DNA from: an uncultured Chlamydiales bacterium
Lineage (GTDB): Bacteria > Chlamydiota > Chlamydiia > Chlamydiales > JAAKFR01
Direction: 5' to 3'
Assembly: GCA_963699155.1 (NCBI GenBank)
Contig: OY969414.1
Location: 128,001 to 192,000, forward strand
Length of the DNA stretch: 64,000 bases
Shown here: in pieces, positions 40,228 through 54,015 of the stretch
Position numbering within the stretch: the stretch's first letter is position 1
Layout: the number at the start of each line of letters is the position of its first letter
Position numbers and translations under genes: made by a program
The notes under the pieces: generated by a model
The model's database searches: none
Told to the model about the DNA's origin: nothing
Seen by the model: the letters and a program-made list of their open reading frames with translations, nothing else

Positions 40228-41085
40228 ATGAGAAAATATCTCTATGGGTTTTTAACACTATTTGTCTGCACCACAGGCTATTCGCTCCCAGTTGGTAATC
40301 CATCTGAAGCAAGTCTTCTAACCAGTGGCGTTTGGTGGGGTCGTCATTCTGACGCTCCCTGTTTTCGTTGGTGGAATGCCTTCAGCCTACGCGCGGGATT
40401 TTATGGAGATTATGTCTTTAATCGGAATCTGAGAGTAAGACATCCCATAACTAACATTAAAAAAGTGAATGAAACAAAAATCTCCACAAGTGCAGGCTAC
40501 TTAGCACTTAATTACTATGATTGGATTGACCTCTTTGCGACATTGGGAGGATCAAAATTACAGCTTCACACAGATATCGGATCTTTTGCTAGTAGTTCTT
40601 TCATCGGAGACGTCGTCTTTTCATCCCATTTTTCTTGGAGTATTGGAGCGAGAAGCATCCTCTGGAAATGGAATTGCTTCAAAATTGGCATTGAAGGACA
40701 GTATTTTAGTACAGTCCCTTATGCAGATTATCTTGTCCGCTTCGATACTGCTGCATTGGATTATCTTGATATCAGCGATGGCCTTCCCTATTGGGAATAT
40801 CAAGTAGGTATGGGACTTTCCTATACCTTTAAAACCCGAACCCCAACCGTCGCATTTATCCCTTACATTGCGGGCAAATGGTCCAAAGGGCATTTTGAAC
40901 TGAATAAAATCAATTTTCAAGATGATGCAGGCACAACGTTTGCCTTTAAGAATCTAAGTACCAATAAAGAGTGGGGGCTTGCCGTAGGAATGACCCTCTC
41001 ATGGAAGGAGATGACTGCTGCTACTGTTGAGGGACGCTGGGGAGATGAAAAAGCGGTCTATGTCAATGGTCAATTCCGTTTTTAA
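40228..41085 (+). CDS. Chlamydial MOMP (OmpA/PorB)-family porin
   Basis: Signal peptide then LPVGNPSEASLL; RAGFYGDYVFNR, FSWSIGAR, YWEYQVG; ends in QFRF. Confidence 0.9.
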   Translation: MRKYLYGFLTLFVCTTGYSLPVGNPSEASLLTSGVWWGRHSDAPCFRWWNAFSLRAGFYGDYVFNRNLRVRHPITNIKKVNETKISTSAGYLALNYYDWIDLFATLGGSKLQLHTDIGSFASSSFIGDVVFSSHFSWSIGARSILWKWNCFKIGIEGQYFSTVPYADYLVRFDTAALDYLDISDGLPYWEYQVGMGLSYTFKTRTPTVAFIPYIAGKWSKGHFELNKINFQDDAGTTFAFKNLSTNKEWGLAVGMTLSWKEMTAATVEGRWGDEKAVYVNGQFRF

Positions 41086-41902
41086 CGTTTTACTCTCTTT
41101 TTTATTTTTGCCAACAAATCTTCTGTTAGCGGATTTCAAGCTGCCATGGATCGTTTATTATAATGATCAAGCACATGCTGAGGATTTGATGCCCTATAAT
41201 CCAATCGTGCTACAAAGCCAGGATCACCCTGATTTAAAACCCCTTCTAGAGAGAGAAAAAGAGCTCCTCGGCTATCTCAATATCGGAGAGATCGATCAAA
41301 AAAGCCCTGAATTTTCTCTCCTTCAAAAAGAGGGGATCATAATTAGTGAAAATGAGAGCTGGCCAGAAAGCTATTCCATAGACATCCGTGATCCTCTTTG
41401 GAAAAAAATCATCCTTAACGATTTGATTCCTCAAATTGTTGAGCAAGGTTTTACTGGATTACTGCTAGATCAAATCGATGTTTCCCTCGCACTCGAGGAA
41501 AGCGATCCAAAAAAGTATGCAGGGATGAAAGCGGCAGCGATCGATCTTGTGCAATCGATTCATAAAGAGTTTCCAAACCTGAAATTGATGCTCAATCGTG
41601 GCTATGAAATTCTCCCTTCCGTAGGTGATTCGATTCAATACGAATTAGCCGAAGCTCTTTATAGCGAATATGACTTTAAGACAAAAAAGTACTTTGTGAT
41701 TTCAAAAGAAGAGCGCTCCCAACAGTTGACCTATCTCTATGAAGCCAGAAAAAAATTTCCCCATATTACTCTTTTCTCTCTAGATTATTGGGATCCGAAG
41801 GACAAAGAGATGTATAAAAAAATCTATGCCCTTGAACGCAAAGAGTGCATTCGTCCTTTTGTGAGCTCCGTTTGGTTAGACACGATCGTTTCAGAACCCT
41901 GA
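41060..41902 (+). CDS. Exported endo-alpha-1,4-polygalactosaminidase-like glycoside hydrolase (PelA hydrolase / GH114-GH166-like)
   Basis: Signal peptide; GYLNIGE, ENESW, GFTGLLLD, LNRGYEI, LDYWDP. Confidence 0.8.
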   Translation: MSMVNSVFNVLLSFLFLPTNLLLADFKLPWIVYYNDQAHAEDLMPYNPIVLQSQDHPDLKPLLEREKELLGYLNIGEIDQKSPEFSLLQKEGIIISENESWPESYSIDIRDPLWKKIILNDLIPQIVEQGFTGLLLDQIDVSLALEESDPKKYAGMKAAAIDLVQSIHKEFPNLKLMLNRGYEILPSVGDSIQYELAEALYSEYDFKTKKYFVISKEERSQQLTYLYEARKKFPHITLFSLDYWDPKDKEMYKKIYALERKECIRPFVSSVWLDTIVSEP

Positions 41903-51773: not shown

Positions 51774-54015
51774 TTAAAGCCGGCTCTTTGAGCATTACCT
51801 TTATTTCTGTGATTCTGTTGAAAGGGAGATTCCACTCTATATCTAAAATATTACCCTCACTTGTCAATTCTTTTAACTCTGTCACCTGGTTCTGACTCAT
51901 CAAAAAAACGGAATAATTGCCTGGTTGGGGCACAAACCATTTCATCTTTAATGTCTCCCAGCCTCTACTCAAAAAAGTGAATGAATGTTCTTCTCTCCTT
52001 AAATTCCATACTTCCCAGTTACTCTCAACCAGAAAAGCAGAATGAGTTGCTTGACCCTGTGAGATCGCTATAATCGGAGAGGCAATAGATGCATCCAGAT
52101 AAACGTAGGTTGATCCTTGATGTTTCTTATATCCAATGACACCGGTAGAATCTGAAAATTTGACAGTGAGATTTTCGATGTCGTCGAAACGAAAGGTTTG
52201 TAATCCCTTACGATTGCGAATCCTCCAGGTGGAATCGGCGATAAGATCTATTTCAGTTGTTACGAAACCTTCTACAATTTCACAGAACCGAGATGGAAAA
52301 ATCGATATATGTGGTTGCGACCTTACAAAATCTAGGATCGTTAAAATAGCTTTCAAGCTTGATGCAAACTCGCCAGAATAACTGTGATAGTAAATAAGCA
52401 TAGGTTTGACACGCCTGGGAGTTTCAGTATTTTTCAGCGTATCAATCAATAGCGTAAACCTGTAAAAATCCTTCTGCCATTCATAGGTATATTCGTTCTC
52501 ACCATTTGAGGAATTATAGGGTTGAATCCATCCCACAGACCTTCTCACAGTAGGCCCGACAAAAAGATAGGAGGGATACTCCTCATCAAAGCGAGCCCAA
52601 CCAATACCCAAATTTTTTACACCTGCCTTATGGCAAAGCTCTAAAGCTTCCCCCCATACTTGCCCATCTCCGCTCCATAACAGGGATTTCACTTGATTAT
52701 CTTTTGGAGCTAGCTGGTTAAGGAAGTCAATGGATCCTCCAATCTCTTTTTCCAGAGAAAAAGGTTCGTTGGCATAGGCTCTTGGCGTTACATATCCTAC
52801 ACCGATTTCTTCTTCAAATTTCACATGATTCCACCACTCATTATATTTGGCATGCAGCCAACTTAGATAACTATTTTGCCAGGTAGGATAGCGATAGCGA
52901 TAGAGGTAATCGATTTCGAGATCTTTTCCATTCCGACCAGGAGCAAAAAAATCCCAAGAAAAGGGATGGCTATAAGTATGAGAGCAGGCTTCCACCTGAG
53001 GTTGCAGAAAATATTCTTTTGCCACTTCCTGGCTTTTGTTTTTTGCTTCCCAATGAGGATCTACATCAGCCGCAATGATCCCCATTCCCAAAGGAAAATC
53101 AGGATTTGTTTTTACGACCTTTTCCAGCAGCACTTTCGAAGAATAGACCTCTTCCTCACCCTGAAACTCCTCCAGCGAAGTTTCAATGTTGAAACCATCT
53201 CCGTGACAGATGTGATAAAAGATGCGTTTGCCTGCAAGGGTGGTCGTATCAGGAATCGGCATTGTCTTGAGATCGAGTGCTAATCTGAAAAACAAAAAAG
53301 GGTTTATATACCAGGCTGCCTCTCGAGGATTTTCAGACGAGAGTCTAAAGCTATTTTCAAAGCCTGGGCTGACATAAGCGCCATTGGGACTAATAATGAT
53401 GAGATCTGCGCTGCTTTCAGAATCATCGGGAATACCTACTTTTAAATAAGAGCGCGCTTCATCGCTTATGATTCGAGAGATTTCGAATTCCGGTAACTTT
53501 TTTGGAAATTGTTTCTCAAAATTACAGAGGTTGCTGTCTTCAAATAATATTTTGTAATCAAATGGAAATAAAACCATTTTTCCCGTTTTTTCAAACCCAA
53601 TTTTCTCATAAACAGTACTGATCATTTCCAATGGGGTGGTCTTCCCCTGTCGATCGGCAAGAAATCCAGGATTCCCTAGAAGAAGAACTTTTTTCCCTCC
53701 ATCCATCGCATCGATTAACCACTCAATGACATTTTCAGGATTTTTCCATTCGGAGTTGGTGGACAGATTCATCAAAATTCCTACGATACCATCATCTCCA
53801 GAAAGTTTGGGAAGGGGGTCTTTAATATCGTGATAAATGACATCGATGCCGAGATAGTTTAGAGCCATTTCTAGCGTGATATGGACTTCATTTTCTTCGA
53901 TTGTCTCAATTTTGGTGTCCAAAAACGCAAGAATTTTTCGAGCCACGATCGGCTCTGCTTGCAGGCTGATCGTTTGAATCAAAAAGCCAAATAATAAAAA
54001 ACTTAGCGTTCTCAT
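51760..54015 (-). CDS. pelA: PelA-like polysaccharide deacetylase without the N-terminal hydrolase domain
   Basis: INPFLFFRLAL..P.PDTTTL.GKR, HGDG, SHTYSHPF.W, LLWSGD, ETPRRVKP..IYYHSYSG. Confidence 0.82.
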   Translation of the reverse strand: MRTLSFLLFGFLIQTISLQAEPIVARKILAFLDTKIETIEENEVHITLEMALNYLGIDVIYHDIKDPLPKLSGDDGIVGILMNLSTNSEWKNPENVIEWLIDAMDGGKKVLLLGNPGFLADRQGKTTPLEMISTVYEKIGFEKTGKMVLFPFDYKILFEDSNLCNFEKQFPKKLPEFEISRIISDEARSYLKVGIPDDSESSADLIIISPNGAYVSPGFENSFRLSSENPREAAWYINPFLFFRLALDLKTMPIPDTTTLAGKRIFYHICHGDGFNIETSLEEFQGEEEVYSSKVLLEKVVKTNPDFPLGMGIIAADVDPHWEAKNKSQEVAKEYFLQPQVEACSHTYSHPFSWDFFAPGRNGKDLEIDYLYRYRYPTWQNSYLSWLHAKYNEWWNHVKFEEEIGVGYVTPRAYANEPFSLEKEIGGSIDFLNQLAPKDNQVKSLLWSGDGQVWGEALELCHKAGVKNLGIGWARFDEEYPSYLFVGPTVRRSVGWIQPYNSSNGENEYTYEWQKDFYRFTLLIDTLKNTETPRRVKPMLIYYHSYSGEFASSLKAILTILDFVRSQPHISIFPSRFCEIVEGFVTTEIDLIADSTWRIRNRKGLQTFRFDDIENLTVKFSDSTGVIGYKKHQGSTYVYLDASIASPIIAISQGQATHSAFLVESNWEVWNLRREEHSFTFLSRGWETLKMKWFVPQPGNYSVFLMSQNQVTELKELTSEGNILDIEWNLPFNRITEIKVMLKEPALNARQ

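What the first reader, a model, noticed from the sequence alone, without database searches (positions are those of the whole stretch)
41060..54015. Complete Pel-type exopolysaccharide cluster in a chlamydial genome
Seen: seven tightly coupled minus-strand genes (pelA-like, TPR, beta-barrel, pelD, E, F, G) plus a convergent hydrolase, all with intact frames, in a block visibly AT-richer than the flanking genes. Known: PelDEFG is the minimal synthase for cationic alpha-1,4-GalNAc/GalN biofilm polysaccharide in Pseudomonas and Bacillus cereus; cultured chlamydiae are obligate intracellular and Chlamydiaceae have no such matrix pathway. Inference: the polymer could coat elementary bodies, mediate adhesion, form an inclusion matrix or support extracellular persistence. 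I know of no characterised chlamydial Pel system but cannot confirm novelty.
Basis: partly seen in the sequence, partly recalled or inferred. Interest (0 to 1): 0.9.

Follow-up and report, generated by a model that had tools for sequence, protein, structure and literature searches.

The report
Chlamydial Pel-type polysaccharide cluster, altered enzymes
This environmental chlamydia carries an intact gene set for making and exporting a Pel-type sugar coat, known from biofilm-forming bacteria; many environmental chlamydiae have it, and in this branch two of its key enzymes have changed active-site residues, so the coat may differ chemically from ordinary Pel.

Summary
The cluster is real. PelF and PelG pass curated models; PelA, PelB, PelD, PelE and the hydrolase match by sequence, profile or fold. 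It lacks PelC, and PelA and PelB are each split in two, so it is not the complete Pseudomonas set. It is neither unique nor a chimera: PelF is in 30 of 401 genomes of the phylum (12 families), sits at the same chromosomal site in two relatives, and its tree largely follows RpoB. (1) In this sub-clade the PelA catalytic base Asp is His (33 of 42 close homologs, 0 of 217 distant), with the metal triad intact. (2) PelF has His at a donor-binding Asn (51 of 53 against 0 of 94), and a UDP-sugar dehydrogenase and SDR pair travels with the clade. (3) The genome has a diguanylate cyclase, an HD-GYP phosphodiesterase and an RxxD-bearing PelD. Best reading: an old chlamydial, c-di-GMP-switched surface polysaccharide, probably less cationic than Pel. 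The chemistry and role are untested. No paper found on chlamydial pel; automated annotations exist, and Rickettsiales relatives are a published precedent. The scan earlier noted PelC-free pel in other phyla.

The parts
51760..54048 (-). pelA(DA): periplasmic CE21-type deacetylase without the hydrolase domain (likely start ATG 54015). Counting from the TTG at 54048: His282 replaces the catalytic base (P. aeruginosa D528) and Ile280 replaces H526; metal triad D284/H357/H361, E517 and acid H555 are kept
48978..51773 (-). pelB N-terminal half: 931-aa TPR scaffold with an N-terminal hydrophobic helix; matches positions 4-893 of a profile of 12 fused chlamydial PelB proteins
47287..48987 (-). pelB C-terminal half: signal peptide, extra beta domain (residues about 70-175; AMIN-like is a lead only), short TPR, outer-membrane beta-barrel
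45887..47284 (-). pelD: TM helices, coiled coil, GAF, degenerate GGDEF fold with RxxD (RTVD, residues 401-404)
44814..45881 (-). pelE: 2-3 TM helices plus helical domain
43346..44842 (-). pelF: GT4 glycosyltransferase. EAQP motif (Pro at the BshA ESFG Gly position); clade-specific His292 for Asn and Gln210 for His
41891..43336 (-). pelG: Wzx/MATE-like exporter, about 10 hydrophobic segments
41027..41902 (+). stand-alone PelA(H)-like glycoside hydrolase (PF03537; nearest solved relative is the PelA hydrolase domain; its Glu aligns with the residue mutated in 5tsy); likely start ATG 41060 or 41066
40228..41085 (+). MOMP-like outer-membrane protein (PF01308); inside the variable site, also beside the cluster in G147; link to Pel unknown
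39183..40088 (+). degenerate duplicate SDR (catalytic YxxxK Tyr lost); a second copy was found only in this genome among the 18 that hold the family
38137..39141 (+). nucleotide-sugar SDR (epimerase/decarboxylase family) that travels with this pel sub-clade
36621..37961 (+). nucleotide-sugar 6-dehydrogenase (TIGR03026 over cut-off; nearest solved relatives act on N-acetylhexosamine nucleotides)
54256..55662 (-). pit phosphate transporter: conserved right flank of the variable site (not part of the system)
34731..36437 (+). oppC-like permease: conserved left flank of the variable site (not part of the system)

Best explanation
This is a working, long-resident chlamydial version of the synthase-dependent Pel machine, and in this sub-clade it makes a chemically altered polymer. 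Steps: (1) UDP-GalNAc comes from a PelX-like C4-epimerase elsewhere in the genome (homology shown, activity inferred). (2) PelF, held at the inner membrane by PelD and PelE, polymerises an alpha-1,4-linked galacto-configured amino sugar, and PelG moves it across the membrane (family membership shown, chemistry inferred). (3) The synthase is switched on when c-di-GMP, made by the genome's single REC-GGDEF cyclase and removed by a GAF-HD-GYP enzyme, binds the PelD RxxD site (all three genes and motifs shown, binding inferred). (4) A membrane-anchored TPR protein guides the chain past PelA to a separately encoded PelB barrel, without a PelC ring (fold shown, assembly inferred). (5) PelA still binds metal but has His in place of the catalytic Asp, so de-N-acetylation is reduced or retuned. 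The exported polymer is then less cationic than Pel: mostly neutral, or anionic if the linked dehydrogenase and SDR feed a uronic acid (sequence pattern shown, effect inferred). (6) The stand-alone hydrolase trims or releases the polymer. The likeliest role is a surface coat or matrix for the extracellular, infectious stage (adhesion to surfaces or protist hosts, persistence in soil); this is inference only.
For: Intact coupled frames. Family and fold matches. PelF over cut-off in 30 of 401 genomes, 12 families, 23 genera. In the 29 other loci: pelE in 29, pelD in 27, pelG as a separate frame in 27, pelA in 23. Same pit-oppC site in G147 and G324; the congener G322 has 1.4 kb there instead of 17.8 kb. 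PelF and RpoB trees share 10 of 25 splits (shuffles: mean 0.29, max 2; rho 0.565, 0 of 500 permutations). pN is well below pS for every gene against G147. His at the base position in 33 of 42 PelA homologs at 40% identity or more and 0 of 217 below; triad and acid kept in 33 of 33; H526 lost in 33 of 33. D528/D517 mutants are inactive and deacetylase-dead P. aeruginosa exports no Pel (PMC12022489, PMC10269871). PelF His292 in 51 of 53 clade members against Asn in 94 of 94 others; this Asn aligns with a BshA Asn, and BshA N171 hydrogen-bonds the sugar (PMC10361700). The SDR family is in 7 of 8 clade genomes and 0 of the other 22 pel genomes. Cyclase with GGDEF and HD-GYP enzyme in G000. RxxD in 3 of 28 chlamydial PelD, all three in genomes with both enzymes. 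The PelX-like gene is in G000, G147 and G324 but not in pel-less G322.
Against: No expression, polymer or enzyme data. His could act as the general base, leaving ordinary deacetylation. One clade genome (G371) keeps Asp and one (G105) lacks the SDR. The His-type sequences form one clade, so the counts reflect about one event. The dehydrogenase and SDR have host-like GC (46.6%) unlike the pel block. In 9 of 11 pel-negative genomes they sit beside a different HEAT-GT2-TPR module, so they may be leftovers. The barrel is not less acidic than canonical PelB (37 D/E against 27 K/R), which gives no support for an anionic product. The cyclase and phosphodiesterase are family-wide (20 and 18 of 22), so their presence says little about Pel. 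The second Arg of the PelD site was not located. Vertical descent is imperfect: G324 (same family) falls outside the clade, and G234 is a transfer (AU p 6e-12).
Confidence: 0.55

Rival explanations
1. Ordinary cationic Pel in an unusual host. His282 serves as the general base, the PelF changes are neutral drift, and the dehydrogenase and SDR serve LPS or another glycan.
For: All other PelA catalytic residues are invariant in 33 of 33 His-type proteins. Deacetylation is required for export in P. aeruginosa (PMC10269871 abstract). The barrel stays net acidic. The PelX-like epimerase tracks the cluster in the family. PelF keeps the Pro linked to galacto specificity.
Against: His at this position was not seen in any of 217 more distant PelA proteins. 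It comes with loss of H526, with Gly at 481 (Asn in 217 of 226 others) and with a donor-site change in PelF.
Confidence: 0.3
2. A recent horizontal import from a free-living proteobacterium, or a chimeric assembly, of little relevance to chlamydial biology.
For: Low GC. A variable chromosomal site with different cargo in relatives: GT90 in G322, a GT2 module in G116. Patchy distribution (4 of 23 in the family). No contig bridges a junction.
Against: Nearest homologs (49-68% identity) are a clade whose eight placed members are all in this phylum, and named proteobacterial homologs reach at most 42%. Same site in two relatives. Synonymous sites are saturated against G147 as for housekeeping genes, and low GC3 persists there. 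Block and flanks are both hit by 99%-identical low-depth contigs in three soil runs of one study.
Confidence: 0.07
3. A decaying relic of a free-living ancestor, as in Rickettsiales, with a dead deacetylase and no polymer made.
For: More than 90% of genomes of the phylum lack it. pel was lost at the switch to obligate symbiosis in Rickettsiales (PMC9352585). The catalytic base is gone, and one neighbouring SDR is degenerate.
Against: All eight frames are intact. pN is far below pS. The same substitution is fixed in dozens of sequences that differ by more than half their residues.
Confidence: 0.08

Closest known systems
Pseudomonas aeruginosa pelABCDEFG (synthase-dependent Pel; PelA 9cgy/5tcb, PelBC 9h80, PelD 4etx/4dn0)
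   Same: Gene order A-B-D-E-F-G; GT4 PelF, PelG exporter, TM-GAF-degenerate GGDEF PelD with RxxD, TPR plus barrel export, PelA-type deacetylase and hydrolase folds, PelX-like epimerase in the genome.
   Different: No PelC found; PelA split into hydrolase and deacetylase genes; PelB split into TPR and barrel genes with an extra beta domain; His for the catalytic base D528 and loss of H526; donor-site changes in PelF; host-dependent organism.
Bacillus cereus pelDEA(DA)FG with separate PelA(H) (PMC7890745, parts 1-2 of 4 read)
   Same: Single-function deacetylase and separate hydrolase; no PelC; PelD can lose its c-di-GMP domain in lineages without c-di-GMP, as seen in 5 of 28 chlamydial PelD.
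   Different: The chlamydial system has an outer-membrane barrel and TPR scaffold, and its PelA is of the Gram-negative type (matches 9cgy).
Derived pel clusters of free-living Rickettsiales relatives (Mitibacteraceae, Athabascaceae; PMC9352585, passages read) and of Azospirillum thermophilum
   Same: Same derived layout in Azospirillum (hydrolase, PelA without hydrolase, split PelB, D, E, F, G; 21-42% identity); a pel cluster in a lineage related to obligate symbionts; a Rickettsiales MAG PelA is among the homologs.
   Different: Azospirillum keeps a PelC-like lipoprotein and the canonical HxDGD motif. The Rickettsiales carriers lack ATP/ADP translocases and pel was read as a sign of free life; here pel coexists with translocases and a type III secretion system.
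Salmonella Vi antigen precursors TviB/TviC (poly-alpha-1,4-GalNAcA; polymer chemistry recalled)
   Same: A dehydrogenase plus SDR pair that could give a uronic-acid version of the same backbone.
   Different: Both genes score far below the TviB and TviC cut-offs (217 against 592; 77 against 760). Vi uses ABC-transporter export (recalled). An analogy, not membership.

Membership tests
Pel synthase-dependent system | PelF GT4 glycosyltransferase | tested here: met
   NF038011 368 bits, cut-off 100
Pel synthase-dependent system | PelG exporter next to pelF | tested here: met
   PF16933 333 bits, cut-off 29
Pel synthase-dependent system | PelD (TM-GAF-degenerate GGDEF) and PelE | tested here: met
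   Model and fold search; profiles hit annotated PelD (E 2e-10, 4e-8) and the PelE-position genes (E 1e-13, 1e-6) in canonical operons. Single-sequence search against PDB found nothing.
Pel synthase-dependent system | RxxD c-di-GMP site in PelD | tested here: met
   RTVD 401-404 aligns with the RxxD of annotated PelD proteins; second Arg not located, binding not tested
Gram-negative Pel system | PelB TPR scaffold and beta-barrel | tested here: met
   Present as two genes; barrel model's best match is PelB 9h80; the halves tile a fused-PelB profile
Gram-negative Pel system | PelC lipoprotein ring | tested here: not met
   No gene between barrel and pelD (2-nt gap); three PelC-position queries find nothing in the genome at E 0.01; PF13036 absent; the PF05643 search had no positive control. 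A very divergent PelC elsewhere is not excluded.
Gram-negative Pel system | Bifunctional PelA (hydrolase plus deacetylase in one chain) | tested here: not met
   Two separate genes; 2 of the 120 closest homologs are fused
CE21 PelA deacetylase | Metal triad D530/H600/H604 and acid H761 | tested here: met
   D284, H357, H361, H555
CE21 PelA deacetylase | Catalytic base D528 with activating H526 | tested here: not met
   His282 and Ile280
Pel synthase-dependent system | Product is partly de-N-acetylated alpha-1,4-GalNAc | not testable with these tools
   Needs biochemistry
Vi antigen (TviB/TviC) precursor pathway | TviB and TviC orthologs over curated cut-off | tested here: not met
   217 against 592 and 77 against 760 bits

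The most novel reading that the evidence does not exclude
Environmental chlamydiae have kept, since early in their history, a synthase-dependent exopolysaccharide machine. In this sub-clade it has been rewired to polymerise a uronic-acid amino sugar, made by the linked dehydrogenase and SDR and accepted through the changed PelF donor site. The result would be an anionic, Vi-like alpha-1,4 capsule, with PelA repurposed as a metal-dependent modifier or chaperone, and its production timed by a c-di-GMP circuit not previously described in chlamydiae. This would be a first capsule or matrix for the phylum and a new product for the Pel machine.
Probability: 0.2. Interest if true: 0.85.

Novelty: new variant of a known kind. 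Interest (0 to 1): 0.62.

Why it matters
Chlamydiae are treated as obligate intracellular bacteria with no matrix or capsule, yet about 7% of sampled genomes, in 12 families, keep a Pel-type export machine. That points to an unstudied extracellular or adhesion phase in environmental chlamydiae. It also weakens the use of pel as a marker of a free-living lifestyle in genome-based reconstructions, since here it coexists with ATP/ADP translocases and type III secretion. For Pel biochemistry, the clade offers a natural His-for-Asp deacetylase, a PelC-free split exporter and PelD proteins with and without c-di-GMP control. Each can be tested with purified proteins.

Tried and rejected
Literature. 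Searches that could have shown a chlamydial pel paper returned none relevant: chlamydia+PelF+PelG: 0; 3 unrelated; 2 papers, 0 chlamydial mentions; Parachlamydia count 0 in the 25 listed; none on topic in the 25 of 67 listed; 0; c-di-GMP in environmental chlamydiae: none on topic; only the Rickettsiales paper. Term searches of PMC9816063 and PMC8242063 found no pel, biofilm or c-di-GMP in the main text, nor in 1 file and 11 of 16 supplementary files. PMC7112194 names chlamydiae only in its genome list. The PMC12022489 supplements have none. Subscription papers, bioRxiv supplements and unread files could still mention it.

Searches that gave little. The named-genome scan with PelF found one unrelated fragment, so no organism names were obtained. 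The metagenome scan with the barrel alignment gave 5 loci, none of the His type where PelA was visible. Single-sequence and profile searches for PelD against PDB were negative or weak (E 1.4). No EAL domain was found. No tRNA in the window, so no tRNA-anchored island. The promoter scan upstream of pelA was at chance level. No RNA holder listed. No contig bridged a junction. Complex prediction of the TPR C-terminus with the barrel gave no answer. The AMIN-like call for barrel residues 70-175 is under 0.9 and a lead only. A primary BshA paper was not held.

Ideas rejected. That the dehydrogenase and SDR are TviB/TviC orthologs. That the SDR is a UDP-xylose-synthase-type decarboxylase: the TSEVY Glu is in only 3 of 8 aligned family members. 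That barrel charge shows an anionic product. That all chlamydial pel has one origin: rejected with G074 included (AU p 0.0014); without it, monophyly is not rejected but not shown (p 0.34).
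Full report
1. Observation. The window is part of one 2.40-Mb contig, rated 100% complete. The seven minus-strand genes and the convergent hydrolase are there and intact. PelG (333 bits, cut-off 29) and PelF (368, cut-off 100) pass curated models. The 762-aa first gene matches only the mixed and deacetylase part of P. thermotolerans PelA (9cgy, E 2e-46). The plus-strand gene matches that protein's hydrolase domain (E 1.5e-19), with its Glu at the position mutated in 5tsy. 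The 931-aa TPR gene and the 566-aa gene tile a profile of 12 fused chlamydial PelB proteins (positions 4-893 and 912-1301). A model of the second (pLDDT 75.7) has PelB as best fold match by two methods. PelD was not found by sequence against PDB, but its model (pLDDT 87.5) shows TM helices, a coiled coil, GAF and a GGDEF-type fold and matches PelD structures among other GAF/GGDEF proteins. Chlamydial PelD and PelE profiles hit the corresponding genes of canonical operons. No PelC was found in the operon or genome (one search lacked a positive control). The block is 40.1% GC against 47.5%, with GC3 in the 4th to 16th percentile. The genome has two strong ATP/ADP-translocase hits and SctV, so it looks like a normal host-dependent chlamydia.

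2. Not unique, not a chimera. PelF exceeds its cut-off in 30 of 401 genomes drawn from the phylum, in 12 families and 23 genera. It is in 0 of 30 genomes of family f3, which I take to be Chlamydiaceae from their 1.0-1.2 Mb sizes (inference). In up to 20 kb around the 29 other hits, pelE was seen in 29, pelD in 27, pelG as its own frame in 27 and pelA in 23; several stretches end at contig ends. The congener G147 has the cluster between the same flanks (pit and oppC), rearranged and with an extra hydrolase and a Spherulin4 gene; G324, another genus of the family, has it at the same site. The congener G322 has one GT90 gene there (1.4 kb against 17.8 kb), and G116 has a different HEAT-GT2-TPR module. 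The site is thus a variable surface-glycan slot. Three soil runs of one study give short contigs, mostly 99% identical or better, on both block and flanks at similar low depth, but none bridges a junction, and the study may be the assembly's source.

3. History. PelF and RpoB trees for 28 genomes (G074 and G284 left out) share 10 of 25 splits; shuffles give at most 2. Families f4 and f16 are recovered in both. The window's PelF lies in a strongly supported clade (here clade A) of 53 sequences at 49-68% identity; its eight placed members come from four families. G324 and three unplaced proteins form the sister group. Fourteen other chlamydial PelA proteins form a separate 98% clade. One origin for 29 genomes is not rejected (AU p 0.34) but not shown; adding G074 is rejected (p 0.0014); G234 cannot be grouped with its RpoB sister (p 6e-12), so transfer within the phylum occurs. 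Only eight named outgroups were available. Against G147, synonymous sites are saturated for pel and housekeeping genes alike, pN is 0.20-0.43 against pS 0.65-0.81, and low GC3 persists. The low GC is therefore not evidence of a recent import from outside, although replacement by a copy from another chlamydia is possible.

4. What is different in clade A. PelA: P. aeruginosa uses D528 as base, H526 as its proposed activator, D530/H600/H604 as metal ligands and H761 as acid, and mutating the base abolishes esterase activity (PMC12022489, passages). In the window the base is His282 and the activator Ile280; the rest is kept. Among 259 homologs from two searches, 33 have His there. All 33 are within the 42 at 40% identity or more, and none is among the 217 below. 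All 33 lack H526 and keep the triad and acid. Six of seven placed clade genomes with a visible pelA have His; G371 keeps Asp. A deacetylase-dead P. aeruginosa exports no Pel (PMC10269871, abstract), so this change must be compensated or the product differs. PelF: position 292 is His in 51 of 53 clade members and Asn in 94 of 94 others; position 210 is Gln in 22 of 53 (the window included) and His in 94 of 94. The Asn aligns with an Asn of B. subtilis BshA. S. aureus BshA H118 and N171 hydrogen-bond the sugar, one of them at the C6 oxygen, and a Pro at the ESFG Gly goes with galactose specificity (PMC10361700, passages); PelF has that Pro. Equating position 210 with H118 rests on a recalled motif, not on a call. 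Linked genes: the SDR at 38137 belongs to a family found in 18 of 400 genomes, namely 7 of 8 clade-A genomes, 0 of 22 other pel genomes and 11 of 370 without pel. In 9 of those 11 it sits by the HEAT-GT2 module, whose GT2 has no full-length match in the seven clade-A carriers (control G047 positive). The pair therefore accompanies one synthase or the other. That fits a role in making a modified donor, but it also fits a leftover. These are features of one clade, not independent events.

5. Supply and control. A PelX-like epimerase lies at G000:C1 45506-46459 (best PDB match 6wjb, E 2e-59, which is PelX by bioRxiv 2020.05.26.111013, passages). It is found in G147 and G324 but not in G322; 25 of 31 genomes had no match at E 1e-40. 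The genome has one REC-GGDEF protein with an intact motif beside a histidine kinase, one GAF-HD-GYP protein and no EAL. Both are family-wide (GGDEF 20 of 22, HD-GYP 18 of 22). Of 28 chlamydial PelD proteins, 3 keep RxxD (window, G147, G324), 5 lack the domain and 20 lack the motif; 21 of the 30 pel genomes have no GGDEF match. Histidine-kinase or receiver genes lie within 17 of 29 fetched stretches but not in this one (no background control). Most chlamydial pel loci thus seem to have dropped c-di-GMP control, as streptococci did (PMC7890745, parts 1-2 of 4), while this lineage keeps it.

6. Mechanism and rivals. Best reading (0.55): a functional Pel-type machine making an alpha-1,4 galacto-amino-sugar surface polymer, switched by c-di-GMP, exported without PelC, and less cationic than Pel. 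Within that reading I put a uronic-acid, Vi-like product at about 0.2 overall. Ordinary cationic Pel with His as base: 0.3. Relic: 0.08. Recent import or artefact: 0.07. Shown: genes, folds, motifs, distribution, purifying selection. Inferred: all chemistry, c-di-GMP binding, assembly of the split PelB, and biological role.

7. Known and new. It works like Pel and meets the core tests (PelD, E, F, G, barrel). It fails three features of the Pseudomonas system: PelC, fused PelA and the catalytic Asp. Split PelA and PelB occur in Azospirillum. PelC-free pel was noted by this scan in other phyla (checked here only for chlamydiae). PelC is called essential in P. aeruginosa (PMC12141448, passages). 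pel in free-living Rickettsiales relatives, lost at obligate symbiosis, is the closest published precedent (PMC9352585, passages). Automated NCBI and JGI labels already call these proteins PelF or PelA. I found no paper describing pel or c-di-GMP in chlamydiae (limits under Tried and rejected), and did not search specifically for a His-type PelA. Verdict: new variant of a known kind; interest 0.62.

Noticed in passing
G000:C1 about 1,097,450-1,098,750 (L067) and 2,039,716-2,041,293 (L160): A REC-GGDEF cyclase and a GAF-HD-GYP phosphodiesterase, conserved in most of this family and all 5 genomes of family f10 whether or not pel is present: a c-di-GMP circuit in chlamydiae with unknown targets. 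GGDEF matches, many weak, occur in 146 of 401 genomes.
   Followed up: partly
L161-L168, L171 (for example G116:C34 about 10,000-20,800): A second candidate exopolysaccharide module in chlamydiae: receiver, HEAT-repeat protein, GT2 synthase-like protein, large TPR proteins, nucleotide-sugar dehydrogenase and SDR. Seen in 9 genomes without pel; in G116 it occupies the same pit-oppC site.
   Followed up: partly
window 13103-22148: A de novo pyrimidine operon (OMP decarboxylase, dihydroorotate dehydrogenase, amidohydrolase, aspartate carbamoyltransferase, carbamoyl-phosphate synthase large and small chains) in a genome that also has nucleotide translocases; that this is unusual for chlamydiae is recalled.
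   Followed up: no
window 54166-54246, also about 13014 and 58830: An 80-bp palindromic REP-like repeat (fold energy -39 kcal/mol); 32 distinct sites with matches of 50 nt or more in the genome, none inside the pel block. It explains the loose read ends.
   Followed up: partly
G000:C1 1,237,730-1,241,454: rpoB is split into two frames near codon 154, probably an assembly indel; other genes of this genome may carry such errors. G234 and G379 show many frameshifts in their pel genes.
   Followed up: no
L045 (G324), L039 (G038), L054/L061/L063 (G147), L169 (G137): Tandem pelA duplications (G324, G038), extra hydrolases (G147, G137) and a Spherulin4 gene (G147) suggest active tuning of polymer modification.
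   Followed up: no
L032 (G074:C67 63452-83451): A pel locus of separate origin, with a receiver gene before pelD and a HEAT-repeat gene between pelE and pelF.
   Followed up: partly
window 47290-48987, residues 70-175: An extra beta domain in the split barrel protein, absent from fused PelB; AMIN-like by language-model features at 0.85 only. It might anchor the barrel in place of PelC.
   Followed up: partly
G000:C1 about 647,000-678,000, 1,109,000-1,123,000, 1,179,000-1,199,000, 1,206,000-1,221,000: Other 13-kb-scale regions at 41% GC or less; contents not examined.
   Followed up: no
window 22265-23194 and 4356-6824: A Legionella-OMP-family porin and a MORN-repeat protein.
   Followed up: no
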